The notes under the pieces: model-generated
Databases searched by the model: none
Told to the model about the DNA's origin: nothing
The model's input: only the letters and a program-made list of their open reading frames with translations
Origin: Clostridia bacterium
GTDB lineage: Bacteria > Bacillota > Clostridia > Oscillospirales > SIG627
Reading direction: 5' to 3'
DNA: 64,000 nt
Assembly: GCA_017414535.1 (NCBI GenBank)
Contig: JAFQMA010000045.1
Coordinates: forward strand, 3,054 to 67,053
In this document: one piece after another, positions 17,882 through 22,013 of the stretch
How positions within the stretch are numbered: the first letter of the stretch is position 1
How the letters are laid out: each line of letters begins with the position of its first letter
Program-made: the position numbers and the translations under genes

Positions 17882-19162
17882 ATGAATTCCTTTTATTTGA
17901 AGCCTAAATTTCTTTCTACCCTCCGCGGCTATACCGCCTCTGCCCTTGGCAAGGACGTGATCGCAGGCATCATCGTGGCCATCATCGCCCTGCCCCTGTC
18001 CATTGCTCTGGCACTGGCCAGCGGCGTAGAGCCTGCCGCGGGCGTTTATACCGCTATCATTGCGGGCTTTGTGGTGTCGCTTCTGGGCGGTAGCCGCGTG
18101 CAGATCGCAGGCCCCACCGCCGCCTTCGCTGCCATCGTAGCGGGCGTGGTGGCCACCCAAGGCATGTCGGGGCTGATCCTTGCCACCCTCATTGCGGGTA
18201 TCATCCTGATCCTCATGGGCGTTTTGAAGCTGGGCGGTCTCATCCGCTTTATTCCCACCACCATCACCGTGGGCTTTACCGCGGGCATCGCCGTCACCAT
18301 TCTGGCAGGTCAGCTGAAGGACTTTTTCGGCCTCCGGTACGCCGAAGGCCTCCGCCCCGTGGAGACGCTGGAAAAGCTGGAGGCAAACGTGGCCTCCATC
18401 GGTACCTTCTCTTGGCAGGCTCTTCTGGTCGGTGTGGTTTGCCTTGCCATCCTCATCATCTATCCCAAGTTTGAAAAGCGCGTGCCCCCCTCCCTCATTG
18501 CCGTGGTGGTGGGCGCCCTTATGGTGAAATTCATCCCCGGTCTGGATGCGGGTGTCTTTACCATCGGCGAGCTTTATGAGATCCCCCGCGGTCTGCCCCC
18601 CTTTACCCTGGGAAGCGTCAACTTTGATCTTGATTCCATCCTTGCCGTCCTGCCCGATGCCGTCACCATTTCCCTCCTTGCCGCCATTGAGTCTCTGCTC
18701 TCCTGCGTGGTGGCCGACGGCATGGTCAATTCCAAGCACAATCCCAATGCAGAGCTGGTAGCGCAGGGCGCGGGCAATATGCTCTCCGTCATGTTCGGCG
18801 GCATCCCCGCCACCGGCGCCATCGCCCGCACCGCCGCCAATGCCAAAAACGGCGGCCGCACTCCCGTGGCGGGTATGGTCCATGCCTTGGTTCTCCTTTT
18901 AGTGCTTTTGGTGCTCATGCCCCTTGCCAAAATGATCCCCATGCCCACCATCGCCGCCATCCTCTTCATGGTGGCCTATAACATGAGTGAGTGGAAAAAA
19001 TTCGTCTCCCTGTGTAAAACGGAAAAGTGGATGGGTATCCTCGTTCTGGTGCTCACCTTCCTTCTCACCGTCATTTTCGACTTGGTGGTGGCCATCGTGG
19101 CAGGCCTTGCCGTCCACTACCTCTTCGTCCTCATCCTCTTCCTTAAAAAGAAAAAGGCATAA
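17882..19162 (+). CDS. SulP-family anion transporter, transmembrane core only (no STAS domain)
   Basis: ATG 17882 follows AGAAGGTG. ...GYTASALGKDVIAGIIVAIIALPLSIALALASGV... is the SulP signature region. The ORF ends right after the last helix. Confidence 0.85.
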   Translation: MNSFYLKPKFLSTLRGYTASALGKDVIAGIIVAIIALPLSIALALASGVEPAAGVYTAIIAGFVVSLLGGSRVQIAGPTAAFAAIVAGVVATQGMSGLILATLIAGIILILMGVLKLGGLIRFIPTTITVGFTAGIAVTILAGQLKDFFGLRYAEGLRPVETLEKLEANVASIGTFSWQALLVGVVCLAILIIYPKFEKRVPPSLIAVVVGALMVKFIPGLDAGVFTIGELYEIPRGLPPFTLGSVNFDLDSILAVLPDAVTISLLAAIESLLSCVVADGMVNSKHNPNAELVAQGAGNMLSVMFGGIPATGAIARTAANAKNGGRTPVAGMVHALVLLLVLLVLMPLAKMIPMPTIAAILFMVAYNMSEWKKFVSLCKTEKWMGILVLVLTFLLTVIFDLVVAIVAGLAVHYLFVLILFLKKKKA

Positions 19163-19313
19163 AAATTATGCTTTTGATAGGAACACTTGCGATCTTCGCG
19201 GAGATTCTTCCTTGACCGTATTCCAATAGGTATGGATTAAAAGTTGCGGTCTATTTGCAAAGAAAGCTATAAAAATTCCAATCGGAGGCTTGAAGCCTTC
19301 ATCCAAAGAAAAG

Positions 19314-19341
19314 AAAAAGAGCCCGATTGGGCTCTTTTTTT
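19314..19341. terminator. Hairpin AAAAAGAGCCC-GATT-GGGCTCTTTTT, copy 1 (duplicate of 20575-20602)
   Basis: Same stem-loop sequence as the cotJC terminator. It lies downstream (minus-strand sense) of the cotJC relic. Confidence 0.6.
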
Positions 19342-19343
19342 CT

Positions 19344-19462
19344 CTGCATCAAAAAATCGGCTGCAACTTCGTCAAAGTTCAAAAATAGCTCGGTTATTTA
19401 CGAAAAGTAAACGCCCTCGCCATTTTCTGCTTTTCCTCGTTTCGCTCGATTTTTTGAAGCAG
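19344..19462. mobile_element. Possible miniature inverted-repeat element (119 bp, 16-bp terminal inverted repeats)
   Basis: CTGCATCAAAAAATCG (19344-19359) and CGATTTTTTGAAGCAG (19447-19462) are reverse complements at 15 of 16 positions. The segment accounts for the extra spacing between the relic stop codon and hairpin copy 1. Confidence 0.3.
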
Positions 19463-19476
19463 ATGGATTGTCTGAA

Positions 19477-19567
19477 CTAACATCCGCATCCCTTGTCAAA
19501 TTCGGGATTGAAGGCGTAGAAGTTCTTTTTGTCAAGCTTGTCCTGGGCAATACGCAGGGCATCACCG
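19477..19567 (-). pseudogene. Relic 3' fragment of a manganese-catalase (cotJC-like) gene
   Basis: The minus strand reads GDALRIAQDKLDKKNFYAFNPEFDKGCGC*. The intact cotJC C-terminus is GDALRIAQDKLDEKNFYAFNPSFDKICPNGGCNH*. Nucleotide similarity to 20628-20706 is obvious and stops abruptly at 19567. Confidence 0.75.
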
Positions 19568-19634
19568 TTCTTACCAAATCAAAAAGATGCCCAAAAAGTT
19601 TGGTAAAACAGGAAGAGAGAAGGGATGATTTTTC

Positions 19635-19663
19635 TTTACAACAAAAAAATACAGTGCTATAAT
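19635..19663 (+). promoter_or_regulatory. sigma-A-type promoter for the islet gene
   Basis: TTTACA (19635-19640), a 17-nt spacer, then TGcTATAAT (19658-19663). An 8-bp inverted repeat TTACCAAA...TTTGGTAA (19571-19606) lies upstream and may be an operator. Confidence 0.45.
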
Positions 19664-19694
19664 TAGATTGTCGAATAAATAATATTGAGGAGTT

Positions 19695-20576
19695 GTGAGT
19701 ATGTTTGATTTAGCGGAAAGAATCAAAGTTGCACGACAAATAAAAGACATTACACAGCAGGAGTTTTCCGATTTGCTAGGAGTGTGCAGAAGTACTGTTG
19801 CTAACTATGAACTTGGCAGAAGAAGCCCTTCGGTAGAAGAAATTGTAAAGATTTCCGAGGTGCTTGATGTTGATGTTGATTTTCTTTTGGGCGTTGAATC
19901 CAAAAAAAGAAAAGGGCAGGGGGTAATATATGTACTTAAGAATCCATCTTTTCCTGATTATGTGAAAATCGGTTATGCAGATAATATTGAAACCCGTTTA
20001 CAACAACTCAATAATAGCGAATGCACGCCCTTTGCTTTTCGTGTTTATGCAACGTATGAAGTGGATTCTCGTCTTTCGGATTTGAAAATTCATTCTATTA
20101 TTGACAAATTAAACCCCAATCTTCGTTCTATTGATAACTGCAATGGTAAGAAACGAGTTCGTGAGTTTTATGCAATGTCGGCAGAAGATGCATATTCATT
20201 GTTAGAGGCAATTGCGGAAATTCATAATCGTACGGATAGATTGAAAAAGTGGGAACTTAGCGAAAAGGAATTAGTTGCTGAGGAGACTGCAAAAGAGATA
20301 AGCTTAGAAAAGAGGGATAGAAGTACTAATTTTTCTTTTGCGGATTATAATATTCCGATAGGGGGGATTTTGGTCTATATTGATGACCCCAATGTTATTT
20401 GTACTGTCGCGGATGATAGAAGAATTGAATACCGCGGAGAAACAATGTATATTACTCCTTTTGTGAAAATGATTAGTGGAAAAGAGTATATCACAAGAGG
20501 CCCTGGATACCTTGCGGATCATTTTACTTTTAACGGTGATTTGTTGAGACATTATTTTGAAAAAAAGAGCAAATAA
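19695..20576 (+). CDS. XRE-type HTH fused to a T5orf172 / GIY-YIG-like domain protein with an uncharacterised C-terminal domain
   Basis: GAGGAG RBS. The HTH is QQEFSDLLGVCRSTVANYELGRRSPSVEEIVKISEVLDV. The T5orf172-like block is GVIYVLKNPSFPDYVKIGYADNIETRLQQLN...FRVYATYEV...KIHSIIDKLNP...REFY. The coding sequence is visibly AT-rich compared with the flanks. Confidence 0.8.
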   Translation: MSMFDLAERIKVARQIKDITQQEFSDLLGVCRSTVANYELGRRSPSVEEIVKISEVLDVDVDFLLGVESKKRKGQGVIYVLKNPSFPDYVKIGYADNIETRLQQLNNSECTPFAFRVYATYEVDSRLSDLKIHSIIDKLNPNLRSIDNCNGKKRVREFYAMSAEDAYSLLEAIAEIHNRTDRLKKWELSEKELVAEETAKEISLEKRDRSTNFSFADYNIPIGGILVYIDDPNVICTVADDRRIEYRGETMYITPFVKMISGKEYITRGPGYLADHFTFNGDLLRHYFEKKSK

Positions 20577-20602
20577 AAAAGAGCCCGATTGGGCTCTTTT
20601 TT
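20575..20602. terminator. Bidirectional terminator (islet gene / cotJC), copy 2 of the 19314-19341 hairpin
   Basis: AAAAAAGAGCCC-GATT-GGGCTCTTTTTT. It overlaps the stop codons of both convergent genes. Confidence 0.75.
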
Positions 20603-21224
20603 AGTGGTTGCAGCCGCCGTTCGGGCAGATTTTATCAAAACTGGGATTGAAGGCGTAGAAGTTCTTTTCGTCAAGCTTATCCTGAGCAATGCGCAGGGCA
20701 TCACCGAAGCGCTGATAATGCACCAGCTCTCTGGCGCGCAGATAGCGAATGGGATCCTGCACGTCGGGATCGTCCACCAGCCGCAGAATATTGTCGTAGG
20801 TGACTCTTGCCTTTTGCTCTGCGGCCAAGTCCTCGTTCAGGTCGGCCAGAAGATCGCCCTTCACGCCGATATACTTCATGTCACAGGGGACGCCGGCGGC
20901 AGAAGCGGGATAGAGGCCTGCGGTGTGATCCACGAAATACTGATCCATGCCTGCCGCGCGGATCTCCTCGGGAGAAAGTCCCTTGGTCAGCTGATACAGG
21001 ATCGCTGCCACCATCTCCAGATGGGCCAGCTCCTCCACGGCCACGTCGGTCAGGATACCTACGATCTGGCCGTAAGGCACGGTGTAGCGCTGATGGAGAT
21101 AGCGCATGGCCGCGGCCAGCTCACCGTCGGGGCCGCCCAGCTGGCTGATGATGATCTTGGCAAATTTTGCATTGGGATTTTTGATCTTGACGGGATATTG
21201 AAGCTTTTTCTCATATAAAAACAT
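20601..21224 (-). CDS. cotJC: Manganese catalase-family spore coat protein CotJC
   Basis: MFLYEKKLQYPVKIKNPNAKFAKIIISQLGGPDGELAAAMRYLHQRY...EELAHLEMV is the canonical CotJC / Mn-catalase di-metal motif. The start is 1 nt after the cotJB stop. Confidence 0.9.
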   Translation of the reverse strand: MFLYEKKLQYPVKIKNPNAKFAKIIISQLGGPDGELAAAMRYLHQRYTVPYGQIVGILTDVAVEELAHLEMVAAILYQLTKGLSPEEIRAAGMDQYFVDHTAGLYPASAAGVPCDMKYIGVKGDLLADLNEDLAAEQKARVTYDNILRLVDDPDVQDPIRYLRARELVHYQRFGDALRIAQDKLDEKNFYAFNPSFDKICPNGGCNH

Positions 21225-21225
21225 A

Positions 21226-21483
21226 TCAGTTTGCCTCCTTTTCCCAAGGCCAGGGGCCGTTGACCCACTGCCAGCTGTCGCAATCGGCACTGCTGTAAAT
21301 GGTCAGAGGACCGTAAAGCTCCTCGTACTTTTCCTTGAGCTTTTTTACAGCACACTTATGCTCACGATAATATGCCAGCGCCTTTTCGCAGTTGGGATGT
21401 GCATCCAGATAAAGGGCGGCCTCGTAGACGGCGAAATCCTCCGCCTGAATTTCCTTTAACAGCTCGTTACCGTACAGCATCAT
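21226..21483 (-). CDS. cotJB: Spore coat protein CotJB
   Basis: LLKEIQAEDFAVYEAALYLDAHPNCEKALAYYREH...YGPLT is the CotJB signature. Its ATGA start overlaps the cotJA stop. Confidence 0.85.
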   Translation of the reverse strand: MMLYGNELLKEIQAEDFAVYEAALYLDAHPNCEKALAYYREHKCAVKKLKEKYEELYGPLTIYSSADCDSWQWVNGPWPWEKEAN

Positions 21484-22013
21484 TTCCTCCCGTAAGCCAG
21501 AAAAGGCTTGTTCAGCTCCTGGAAGACCGTGCCGCGGCAAAGGCCCTCCTTGGGATCGTAAAGGGAAGAGAAGTGCTGCTTCTCGGAATAGACCATGGCA
21601 AGGCTCCGATGGTCGTGGTCGCAGTCGACCTCGCGTTCACAGTCGTTGTCTCTGCTTCTGTCCGCGCCGGAGCTCTGCTCACAGCCGCAATCGGTGCTTC
21701 TCTGCAGGGGACAGGAAAGTGCCTGACCGCCGCAGGAGCCCCGACACAGGCTTCTTGCTACGGAAGGGCCGCCGCATCGGCCGCAACTGCCGCATTCGTT
21801 CCAGGCTCTTGCGCGAAAGGCACCGCAGGAGGAGTCGCATTCATTCCAGGGTCTGGCACGGAAGGCACTGCAAAGACCGCATCCGTTTCTTGCCTGAGAG
21901 GAACAGCTGTTGCATCCGCTTCTTGCCTGTGCGGAGCAGGAGGAACCGTATTGGGAAACGCCGCAGCTGCCGTTGCCGACACCACAGCGGGAATTCTGTT
22001 TCATCGTGTTCAT
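21480..22013 (-). CDS. cotJA: CotJA-domain spore coat-associated protein with a long Cys-rich N-terminal extension
   Basis: The C-terminal LAMVYSEKQHFSSLYDPKEGLCRGTVFQELNKPFL is the CotJA domain. The first ~131 residues contain 19 Cys with internal repeats. RBS spacing favours the second ATG (22004). Confidence 0.7.
   Translation of the reverse strand: MNTMKQNSRCGVGNGSCGVSQYGSSCSAQARSGCNSCSSQARNGCGLCSAFRARPWNECDSSCGAFRARAWNECGSCGRCGGPSVARSLCRGSCGGQALSCPLQRSTDCGCEQSSGADRSRDNDCEREVDCDHDHRSLAMVYSEKQHFSSLYDPKEGLCRGTVFQELNKPFLAYGRK

What the first reader, a model, noticed from the sequence alone, without database searches (positions are those of the whole stretch)
19314..20706. AT-rich single-gene islet (HTH + T5orf172/GIY-YIG-like) inserted in the 3' end of cotJC, bracketed by a duplicated cotJC tail and terminator
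Between sulP and the convergent cotJC lies a visibly AT-rich ~1 kb block (about 19568-20576) in a GC-rich window. It encodes one protein made of an XRE-type HTH, a T5orf172/GIY-YIG-like module and an unknown C-terminal domain. Host sequence is duplicated on both sides. First, the hairpin AAAAAGAGCCCGATTGGGCTCTTTTT occurs at 19314-19341 and again at 20575-20602. Second, the last 29 codons and stop of cotJC have a diverged in-frame second copy at 19477-19567. That copy reads ...KLDKKNFYAFNPEFDKGCGC*, while the functional gene reads ...KLDEKNFYAFNPSFDKICPNGGCNH*. Similarity stops sharply at 19567/20706, inside the cotJC reading frame. This is the footprint of an element that targets the 3' end of a conserved gene and supplies a replacement 3' end plus terminator. 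Islands that target tRNA genes do the same. Here there is no integrase, transposase or recombinase. The only candidate catalytic function is the nuclease-like T5orf172 domain. That suggests either a homing-type mobile gene or cargo (for example a defence or regulatory gene) moved by homologous recombination between cotJC alleles.
Basis: partly seen in the sequence, partly recalled or inferred. Interest (0 to 1): 0.65.

Follow-up and report, generated by a model that had tools for sequence, protein, structure and literature searches.

The report
Defence-gene cassette in cotJC insertion hotspot
A single AT-rich gene for a candidate anti-phage nuclease sits behind the spore-coat gene cotJC, at the exact point where serine-recombinase mobile elements insert in many gut Clostridia; the duplicated gene end marks that hotspot and was not made by the nuclease.

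Summary
In detail: the AT-rich 1-kb block, the duplicated hairpin, the duplicated cotJC tail and the sharp break at 19567/20706 are all there.

The gene is an XRE-HTH fusion of PADLOC candidate defence family PDC-S57. It combines a T5orf172/GIY-YIG domain with a C-terminal domain that resembles DNA-binding domains.

Homologs sit as lone genes at unrelated loci with no flanking duplication. The same cotJC tail duplication, starting at the same codon (RFG|DALR), occurs in five other species with unrelated cargo, including a three-cassette array.

That codon is the crossover site of large serine recombinase (LSR) elements. In related loci these elements interrupt cotJC, and precise excision would restore the gene.

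A strain of the same species lacks both the islet and the second tail. The working tail ends in a sequence type native to other species, while the displaced tail is the local type. So a replacement 3' end really was supplied.

What is not shown:
- how the duplication arose (LSR acting in trans, RecA crossover inside the tail, or decay of a larger element);
- any recognisable element-side arm next to the window's pseudo-tail.

Verdict: a new variant of a known kind, of moderate interest.

The parts
17882..19162 (+). sulP (SulP-family permease), conserved right-hand boundary of the variable gap
   Evidence: Pfam Sulfate_transp E = 2e-84. Homology to the islet-free strain L103 resumes at the sulP stop codon.
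19163..19313 (.). 150-nt spacer between sulP and hairpin B; absent from the islet-free strain
   Evidence: No match in L103/L105.
19314..19340 (-). Hairpin B, the distal copy of the cotJ terminator
   Evidence: Identical to the terminator behind cotJC in sister species L127.
19342..19476 (.). 135-nt palindromic spacer (17-nt inverted ends at 19343-19359 and 19447-19463) between the pseudo-tail and hairpin B
   Evidence: Inverted repeat I2. Folds at -68.9 kcal/mol, z = -7.1. No other copy in the window. No Rfam match at threshold.
19477..19567 (-). Displaced cotJC pseudo-tail B (GDALRIAQDKLDKKNFYAFNPEFDKGCGC*), the local tail type. A stop codon lies 4 codons upstream in frame.
   Evidence: It is 94% identical to the working tail of the islet-free strain L103.
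19568..19700 (+). Junction flank and islet promoter region: -35 at 19635-19640, extended -10 at 19655-19663, RBS at 19687-19692. No recognisable LSR element-side arm.
   Evidence: Promoter scan scores 11/12 with TG. A position matrix built from 14 element-side arms scores this flank at background, the 27th percentile.
19701..20576 (+). Islet gene, 291 aa: XRE HTH (about 19722-19886), T5orf172/GIY-YIG (about 19920-20213), helical linker, C-terminal domain resembling DNA-binding domains (about 20307-20564). Belongs to the PDC-S57 family.
   Evidence: Pfam. PADLOC PDLC05043 E = 4e-84. Alignment A2. AlphaFold models and Foldseek.
20559..20570 (.). Partial extra copy of a hairpin arm (GAAAAAAAGAGC) overlapping the last codons of the islet ORF; possible join point
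   Evidence: Inverted repeat I4. The C-terminal residues differ from all homologs.
20575..20601 (-). Hairpin A, a bidirectional terminator shared by cotJC and the convergent islet gene
20601..20642 (-). Foreign 3' part of the working cotJC tail (SFDKICPNGGCNH*)
   Evidence: Diverges from the same-species allele L103 after AATCCC. This tail type is native to P0243, P0245, P0267, P0250 and L127.
20643..20706 (-). Species-native 5' part of the repeated tail (DALRIAQDKLDEKNFYAFNP), plus the 4-nt cggt at which A/B identity begins
   Evidence: 60/60 nt identical to L103. The boundary coincides with the LSR cores GGTGAAGCG and GGCGAAGC.
20601..21224 (-). cotJC (Mn-catalase-type spore coat protein), intact, 207 aa
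   Evidence: Pfam Mn_catalase E = 8e-55. Gene calls in identical contigs.
21226..22013 (-). cotJB and cotJA, upstream genes of the operon
   Evidence: Pfam CotJB and CotJA. Gene calls.

Best explanation
The 1139-bp insert (one tail, one terminator, one gene with its promoter) is a recombinase-less single-gene cassette. It lies in a recurrent insertion hotspot at a fixed point of cotJC (codons ...RFG|DALR...). That point is the chromosomal attachment site of a large family of Clostridial elements that carry a large serine recombinase (LSR).

Incoming DNA carrying a cotJC 3' end and terminator from another lineage was joined there in a Campbell-like way. As a result cotJC stays intact with a foreign last 13 codons, and the resident tail was pushed outward, where it survives as an untranslated pseudo-tail.

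The cargo is an XRE-HTH fusion of candidate defence family PDC-S57: a T5orf172/GIY-YIG nuclease plus a C-terminal domain that resembles DNA-binding domains. It is transcribed from its own strong promoter and ends at the shared bidirectional terminator. The gene is a passenger. It most likely acts as a self-regulated nuclease directed against invading DNA. It did not cut or target cotJC.

Shown:
- the anatomy of the insert;
- the fixed boundary across species;
- LSR elements at that boundary;
- the strain polymorphism;
- the foreign origin of the working tail;
- the family membership of the protein.

Inferred:
- that the window's junction was made by, or inherited from, an LSR-type event;
- which enzyme (LSR acting in trans at the core, or RecA within the 60-nt shared tail) made the present arrangement;
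- the defence function.
For: 1. Extra cotJC tails lie behind an intact cotJC in 5 of 80 species representatives, found by a search blind to the boundary. All 7 copies, and the window's, start at the same codon. Each has different cargo.

2. At that codon cotJC is interrupted by elements that end in an LSR gene. Examples are L091 (3333 bp, core GGTGAAGCG) and L121/L122 (7132 bp, core GGCGAAGC). The right ends of L085, L086, L087 and L120 show the same arrangement. Pfam finds Resolvase+Recombinase+Zn_ribbon_recom. The deduced element-side attachment site (attP) of L121 is dyad-symmetric at 44/68. Precise excision restores the reading frame.

3. The extra tails in other species are preceded by a conserved stretch of about 27 nt. 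It is homologous, in register, to the element-side arm next to the LSR genes.

4. The literature already lists cotJC among sporulation genes used for phage or transposon integration (bioRxiv 10.1101/2021.11.22.469490, citing Abe et al. 2013).

5. Same-species contigs L103/L105 are 98.8-99.3% identical in the flanks. They have one tail, no islet, and other genes in the gap. Sister species L127 keeps the cotJ...sulP synteny with yet other genes in the gap.

6. Tail A is 60 nt identical to the native allele followed by a foreign CPNGGC-type end. Tail B is 60 nt with 4 differences followed by a native-type end.

7. Protein: PADLOC PDC-S57 E = 4e-84 over residues 75-290. Residues of the GIY-YIG type are invariant. 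Slx1 is the top structural match of the core, and the C-terminal domain matches the CcrM C-terminal domain. The HTH resembles restriction-modification controller proteins, CapH and ImmR.

8. Homologs are lone genes at many loci, and the closest one lies on a small Mob_Pre+LSR element.
Against: - The 30 nt upstream of the window's pseudo-tail do not look like any known element-side arm; the matrix score is at background. For this window the LSR link therefore rests on the coincidence of position: identity begins 1 nt from the left edge of the LSR core.
- My rough estimate is that a random duplication would land within that 10-nt interval about 3% of the time.
- The LSR elements actually seen interrupt cotJC and carry no replacement tail. 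LSR sites normally share only a few bases, so a 90-175-nt duplication is not what a plain LSR reaction leaves.
- The reciprocal chimerism of the tails points to an exchange inside the tail, not at the core.
- No LSR is present in the window.
- Defence activity of PDC-S57 is only a database candidate status. No paper was found.
Confidence: 0.55

Rival explanations
1. Allelic or homology-facilitated recombination only. The cotJC-sulP gap is an ordinary variable hotspot between two convergent conserved genes. DNA from a related lineage (CPNGGC-type tail, terminator, neighbouring islet gene) recombined with one end anchored in cotJC and the other joined illegitimately. This left part of the resident tail behind. 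No site-specific recombinase was ever involved here, and the boundary match is coincidence.
For: Three related lineages carry three different contents in the same gap. The tails are reciprocal chimeras with the switch inside the tail. No element-side arm is present in the window. Both tail types and the identical terminator exist natively in syntenic relatives.
Against: The start of identity falls within 1 nt of the LSR core edge. It is the same codon as in all 7 independently found extra tails. Chance is roughly 3% by my estimate. A plain double crossover would not leave a duplication.
Confidence: 0.25
2. Decayed remnant of a complete LSR element. An interrupting element carried the islet gene as cargo. 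The segment next to its right end (including tail and terminator) was tandemly duplicated. Excision between the left end and the nearer right end then rebuilt cotJC and stranded the distal part. Later deletions removed the recombinase and the arm.
For: The closest homolog of the islet gene (79%) lies on a small element with a Mob_Pre relaxase and an LSR. L089 keeps the L091-type arm but has unrelated sequence upstream, so rearranged derivatives exist. This route explains why tail and terminator are both duplicated, with a fixed 5' boundary and a variable 3' boundary.
Against: There is no trace of an LSR pseudogene. In the known elements the LSR gene is the one next to the right end, so it should have been stranded too. 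Tails A and B are of different lineage types rather than recent copies of each other.
Confidence: 0.15
3. Homing-type mobile gene. The T5orf172/GIY-YIG protein cuts the 3' end of an empty cotJC. Repair then copies in the gene with a cleavage-resistant replacement tail.
For: GIY-YIG-type residues are conserved. T5orf172 proteins include phage homing endonucleases and their domesticated relatives (titles and abstracts listed, e.g. PMC10448857, PMC8263062). The gene is AT-rich and patchily distributed.
Against: None of 80 cotJC loci from other species carries a homolog. Homologs sit at unrelated sites without target duplication. The same duplication occurs with unrelated cargo. Homing replaces rather than duplicates the target.
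Confidence: 0.04

Closest known systems
Sporulation gene-intervening elements with a large serine recombinase (skin in sigK, SPbeta in spsM, gin in gerE; cotJC listed as a target by Abe et al. 2013)
   Same: Same class of target (a mother-cell sporulation gene) and same class of recombinase. Related loci L091 and L121 fit this kind fully: cotJC is split at a short shared core, the LSR gene lies at one end, and precise excision restores the frame (literature).
   Different: In the window cotJC is not split, there is no recombinase, and about 90 nt of the gene plus the terminator are duplicated.
SCCmec and recombinase-less pseudo-SCC cassettes at the 3' end of rlmH (orfX) in staphylococci
   Same: Serine recombinases (Ccr) insert at the 3' end of a conserved gene and leave it intact. 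Tandem arrays occur, and some members lack the recombinase and depend on one supplied in trans. This resembles the L046 three-cassette array and the window's lone cassette.
   Different: SCC repeats are about 15-20 bp, not 90-175 nt. The cotJC LSR elements seen here interrupt the gene. No trans-mobilisation has been shown.
CIMEs, cis-mobilisable elements left at the 3' end of fda by ICESt1/ICESt3 in Streptococcus thermophilus (from my own knowledge)
   Same: Short elements that lack a recombinase, are bounded by attachment-site copies at the 3' end of a conserved gene, and carry accessory cargo.
   Different: Those depend on a tyrosine recombinase and have both site copies recognisable. Here only the position of one junction is preserved in the window.
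PADLOC candidate defence family PDC-S57, and T5orf172 nucleases of phages and satellites (Odn, CapR, phage homing endonucleases)
   Same: Full-length profile match of residues 75-290, T5orf172 domain, GIY-YIG fold.
   Different: An added N-terminal XRE HTH is present in only about 12 of the best 120 relatives. No defence phenotype is published for the family. Almost no phage-borne relatives were found.

Membership tests
PDC-S57 (PADLOC candidate single-gene defence system) | Full-length match to the family profile | tested here: met
   PDLC05043 E = 4.1e-84, residues 75-290 on profile positions 4-215 of 221.
PDC-S57 (PADLOC candidate single-gene defence system) | Acts alone, with no conserved partner gene | tested here: met
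   Neighbours differ in every context examined.
PDC-S57 (PADLOC candidate single-gene defence system) | Protects against phage | not testable with these tools
   No paper mentions PDC-S57. A phage challenge experiment is needed.
T5orf172 / GIY-YIG nuclease superfamily | Domain match above the curated threshold | tested here: met
   PF10544 scores 49.4 bits against a cut-off of 20. MUG113 scores 33.7 against 22.3.
T5orf172 / GIY-YIG nuclease superfamily | Conserved motif residues (Tyr of the first motif, K-I-G-Y second motif, Arg, Glu) | tested here: met
   In 33 sequences K89 I90 G91 Y92, R99, N104, R152, R154, E155 and F156 are invariant, and Y77 is at least 90% conserved. Assigning catalytic roles to them is an inference.
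T5orf172 / GIY-YIG nuclease superfamily | GIY-YIG fold | tested here: inconclusive
   Slx1 is the top Foldseek match of the core model, but the match is weak: E = 7e-3, probability 1.0, TM 0.34. Model pLDDT is 82.
Free-standing homing endonuclease gene | Homologs associated with the same target gene or site | tested here: not met
   No homolog in 80 cotJC loci. Homologs lie next to unrelated genes.
Free-standing homing endonuclease gene | The footprint at the target is specific to this gene | tested here: not met
   The same tail duplication occurs with other cargo in L029, L037, L046, L063 and L082.
LSR gene-intervening element (skin/gin type) | Carries a large serine recombinase gene | tested here: not met
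   No LSR homolog in the window or within about 8 kb either side. The feature is met in L085, L087, L091, L120 and L121.
LSR gene-intervening element (skin/gin type) | Target gene is split and restored by excision | tested here: not met
   The window's cotJC is intact. The feature is met in L091 and L121.
Recombinase-less att-bounded cassette (CIME / pseudo-SCC type) | Junction at the crossover core of a known recombinase family | tested here: met
   A/B identity begins at cggt|GAT, and the LSR cores are GGTGAAGCG and GGCGAAGC at the same codon.
Recombinase-less att-bounded cassette (CIME / pseudo-SCC type) | Recognisable element-side arm next to the core | tested here: not met
   The window flank scores -22 against a background mean of -28 (sd 9.6). 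The 14 arms used to build the matrix score 13 to 37.
Recombinase-less att-bounded cassette (CIME / pseudo-SCC type) | Mobilised by a recombinase supplied in trans | not testable with these tools
   Needs detection of circles or a recombination assay.
Integron cassette | IntI tyrosine recombinase with attI/attC sites | tested here: not met
   No recombinase near the site. The repeats are copies of a coding tail, not attC-like palindromes.

The most novel reading that the evidence does not exclude
The cotJC RFG|DALR site is a cassette platform. Small recombinase-less units consist of a cotJC tail, a terminator, often a promoter, one cargo gene and exactly one half-site length of element-side arm. 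A large serine recombinase encoded elsewhere captures, stacks and exchanges them. This would work like pseudo-SCC cassettes or an integron, but it would be built on a serine-recombinase site inside a sporulation gene, and each insertion would renew the gene's 3' end. The window's islet would be one such unit carrying a defence gene, and L046 would be a three-unit array.
Probability: 0.2. Interest if true: 0.7.

Novelty: new variant of a known kind. Interest (0 to 1): 0.5.

Why it matters
One is a widely travelling single-gene nuclease of a candidate defence family. The other is the insertion hotspot in which it happens to lie.

It also fixes, to the codon, an attachment site in cotJC used by a large serine-recombinase family in gut Clostridia. 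Around that site there are recombinase-less cassettes that keep the gene intact by duplicating its 3' end. A plain serine-recombinase reaction does not explain that arrangement.

If the cassettes prove mobile in trans, this would be a new route for exchange of accessory and defence genes among spore-forming gut anaerobes. It would also supply natural site pairs for serine integrase engineering.

If they are not mobile, the locus remains a clear worked example of a strain-variable hotspot, with an 'empty' allele available for comparison.

Tried and rejected
- Viral contigs: a scan for the cotJC tail pattern found nothing, so no phage with this site was found in IMG/VR.
- Phage records: the islet protein gave only two weak partial hits at 29% identity.
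- Flanking repeats around homologs of the islet gene (L001, L002, L003, L004, L110, L116): none beyond chance.
- DNA homology between the window's islet and its closest homolog locus L004 is confined to the ORF. No shared ends could be defined.
- Rfam scan of 19100-20800: only sub-threshold chance matches to terminator-like leaders.
- Position matrix of 14 element-side arms against the window's junction: background score. The idea that the window keeps a recognisable arm was therefore dropped. A gapped resemblance (CAT...TTGATT...TGG) is post hoc and not significant.
- PDB sequence search of the PDC-S57 core: nothing. Foldseek with the full-length model was dominated by the HTH, so the core was modelled separately.
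- PADLOC and Pfam on the cargo of the other cassettes and of the islet-free allele: essentially no annotation. The hotspot cannot be called a defence island.
- PDC-S57 literature search: no papers.
- I considered and rejected an integron, a tyrosine-integrase island and a transposon. There is no such enzyme, no terminal inverted repeats bounding the insert, and the repeats are copies of the gene tail.
Full report
OBSERVATION.

The hairpin AAAAAGAGCCCGATTGGGCTCTTTTTT occurs at 19314-19340 and at 20575-20601, with 27 of 27 bases identical. Both copies are called terminator-like on the cotJC strand.

A 75-nt stretch at 19493-19567 repeats 20632-20706 at 89% identity (blastn E = 2e-22). Read on the minus strand it is an in-frame copy of the cotJC C-terminus, GDALRIAQDKLDKKNFYAFNPEFDKGCGC*. 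The working gene ends ...GDALRIAQDKLDEKNFYAFNPSFDKICPNGGCNH*. Similarity stops at 19567/20706, four bases upstream of the Asp codon.

GC falls to 0.34-0.39 across 19500-20600 from about 0.58-0.60 on both sides. No other kilobase of the window is as low.

The single ORF most likely starts at ATG 19701. It is preceded by GAGGAG and by a near-consensus promoter TTTACA-17-TGcTATAAT. It carries Pfam HTH_3 and T5orf172 domains.

The left hairpin is separated from the left tail by a 135-nt palindromic spacer, which folds far better than shuffled sequence (z = -7.1).

THE GENE. Residues 75-290 match PADLOC profile PDC-S57, a candidate single-gene defence family, at E = 4e-84 over almost the whole profile.

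The database holds thousands of relatives at 55-79% identity. Most are about 220 aa and lack the HTH. About a dozen of the best 120 carry it.

In an alignment of 33 relatives the GIY-YIG-type positions are invariant or nearly so: Y77, K89-I-G-Y92, R99, N104, R152, R154, E155, F156.

AlphaFold models are confident (pLDDT 85 for the whole protein, 82 for the core). Foldseek gives three results:
- The HTH matches restriction-modification controller proteins, CapH, ImmR and SinR.
- The core's first half matches the GIY-YIG nuclease Slx1, though weakly.
- The last 90 residues or so match the C-terminal DNA-binding domain of CcrM and, more loosely, SAND-type domains.

The most likely role is a DNA-directed nuclease whose expression is controlled by its own HTH. 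Defence is a database candidate status only, and I found no paper on PDC-S57.

IS THE GENE RESPONSIBLE FOR THE FOOTPRINT? No.

Homologs sit as lone genes between unrelated housekeeping genes (L001, L003, L110-L119). The closest one (79%) lies on a small element with a Mob_Pre relaxase and a serine recombinase. None of these loci has a flanking direct repeat beyond chance.

I also fetched cotJC loci from 80 species representatives. None carries a homolog of the islet gene. Five of them (L029, L037, L046, L063, L082) nevertheless have extra copies of the cotJC tail behind an intact cotJC.

WHAT THE DUPLICATION IS. All seven extra tails found by that boundary-blind search, and the window's, begin at the same codon...RFG|DALR....

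In the other species each extra tail is preceded by a conserved stretch of about 27 nt (roughly AAAATaCTTCAYgtTGAYtgTTTyGGC). A cargo ORF ends 11-44 nt before the boundary.

L046 has three such units in a row. Each unit is a 175-nt repeat (tail + terminator + promoter) followed by a different small gene. The outermost tail is of a different type.

A metagenome scan for this arm+tail pattern returned eight more loci. In four of them a large serine recombinase gene ends just before the arm (L085, L086, L087, L091). Pfam finds Resolvase+Recombinase+Zn_ribbon_recom. L085 also has a MobA/VirD2 relaxase, so it looks like a mobilisable element.

In L091, cotJC is cut at ...VHYQRFGEA| by a 3333-bp element.

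Searching relatives of the L085 recombinase gave more than 4000 proteins at E < 1e-60, and two of these were followed up:
- L121/L122: a 7132-bp element carrying a two-component system, an ABC transporter and the recombinase, which interrupts a cotJC homolog at the same codon.
- L120: the same right end.

The left and right junctions share GGTGAAGCG (L091) or GGCGAAGC (L121). The deduced attP of L121 is dyad-symmetric at 44/68, and joining the flanks restores an in-frame cotJC.

This fits the known class of sporulation gene-intervening elements. A preprint citing Abe et al. 2013 already names cotJC among such targets.

So the point where the window's duplication starts is the chromosomal attachment site of a widespread serine-recombinase family. 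The conserved stretch before the extra tails is the element-side arm of that site.

THE WINDOW'S OWN HISTORY. Contigs with an identical islet are 99.7-100% identical to the window throughout.

Two JGI contigs (L103, L105) encode an identical CotJB and are 98.8-99.3% identical in the flanks. They have a single tail (...NPEFDKGCGCSH*), a single terminator and no islet. About 2 kb of other genes fills their gap up to sulP. Only these two cotJC alleles of the species are in the protein collection.

A sister species (L127, cotJC 85%) keeps the cotJ...sulP synteny with yet other genes in the gap. Its native tail ends ...SFDKFCPNGGCGCNN, and its terminator is identical to both window hairpins.

Base-by-base comparison of the tails:
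- The first 60 nt of the working tail are identical to the native allele. Its last 42 nt are of the foreign CPNGGC type.
- The first 60 nt of the pseudo-tail differ from the native allele at four positions. Its end is of the local GCGC type.

A replacement 3' end was therefore really supplied from another lineage. The reciprocal pattern shows an exchange inside the tail.

WHAT IS NOT EXPLAINED. The recombinase elements I could see interrupt cotJC and bring no tail. The recombinase-less cassettes all lie behind an intact gene with a 90-175-nt duplication. A plain serine-recombinase reaction does not leave that.

Three routes remain open:
- a small circle with a hybrid site, integrated by a recombinase acting in trans (as for pseudo-SCC cassettes; from my own knowledge);
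- a RecA-mediated Campbell insertion through the shared tail;
- tandem duplication of the segment next to the right end, followed by excision using the nearer copy.

The strict retention of one half-site length of arm next to varied cargo in other species favours a functional site. The chimeric tails in the window favour RecA.

In the window itself the 30 nt before the pseudo-tail score at background against a matrix built from 14 arms. Its link to the recombinase system therefore rests on position alone. By my rough estimate, a random duplication would start within that 10-nt interval about 3% of the time.

VERDICT.
This is a targeted site where a replacement 3' end was supplied, and allelic recombination was involved.
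The nuclease is a passenger, and the relevant enzyme family is a serine recombinase that is absent from this window.

The protein is a new architectural variant (HTH fusion) of a known candidate family. The locus is a new variant of known kinds of recombinase-targeted hotspots. Interest is moderate. It would rise if the cassettes prove to be mobilised in trans.

Noticed in passing
L046:2043-4188: Array of three recombinase-less cassettes behind an intact cotJC. A 175-nt unit (cotJC tail + terminator GGACGGCTTG..CAAGCCGTCC + promoter TTTACT-17-TGGTATAAT) is repeated at 86-95% identity. Each copy is followed by a different small gene (139-aa phosphatase-like protein with an HCxxGxxRS motif, then 153 aa and 165-191 aa unknowns). 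The array ends in a fourth tail of a different type.
   Followed up: partly
L121:4047-11600 (also L122-L126): 7132-bp element interrupting a cotJC homolog at ...FQRFGEA|. It carries a response regulator, a histidine kinase, an ABC ATPase and an FtsX-type permease (this looks like a peptide-antibiotic resistance module) plus the serine recombinase. The recombinase cluster has 274 member sequences, so the element is common.
   Followed up: partly
L091:268-3600: Very small (3333 bp) cotJC-interrupting element holding only a 329-aa zinc-ribbon membrane protein, a VanZ-like protein and a 427-aa serine recombinase. It would be a compact candidate for testing sporulation-specific excision.
   Followed up: partly
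window:19342-19476: 135-nt near-perfect long palindrome (17-nt inverted ends) between the pseudo-tail and the distal terminator. It folds at -68.9 kcal/mol (z = -7.1). It is unique in the window and absent from the islet-free strain. Relatives L005, L007 and L016 also have unrelated short inserts between the cotJC stop and the terminator.
   Followed up: partly
L089 (whole contig, 1916 nt): It has the same arm and tail as L091, but the sequence upstream of the 27-nt arm looks by eye like an alanine-dehydrogenase N-terminal fragment (no domain search was run) that reads through the arm. This is either a rearranged derivative or a chimeric assembly.
   Followed up: no
L103:3689-5747: The islet-free strain of the same species carries two unannotated genes (255 aa with a faint TPR hit, 270 aa membrane protein) in the cotJC-sulP gap. 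Sister species L127 carries a CsoR-like repressor and a 127-aa ORF there. That makes three lineages with three different contents.
   Followed up: partly
L004:246-4913: The closest homolog of the islet gene (79%) lies on a small element with DUF6291, a Mob_Pre relaxase and a 584-aa serine recombinase. That recombinase belongs to a different family (24% identity to the cotJC-targeting ones).
   Followed up: partly
window:20559-20570: A partial third copy of the hairpin arm (GAAAAAAAGAGC) overlaps the last codons of the islet ORF. The ORF's C-terminal residues (EKKSK) differ from all homologs, so this may be the join between the gene and the imported terminator.
   Followed up: no
window:19130-19162 versus L103:5751-5785: The last few codons of sulP differ between the islet-bearing and islet-free strains (...LILFLKKKKA* versus ...LILHIQKKKA*). 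The right-hand recombination breakpoint of the variable gap therefore lies inside the end of sulP.
   Followed up: no
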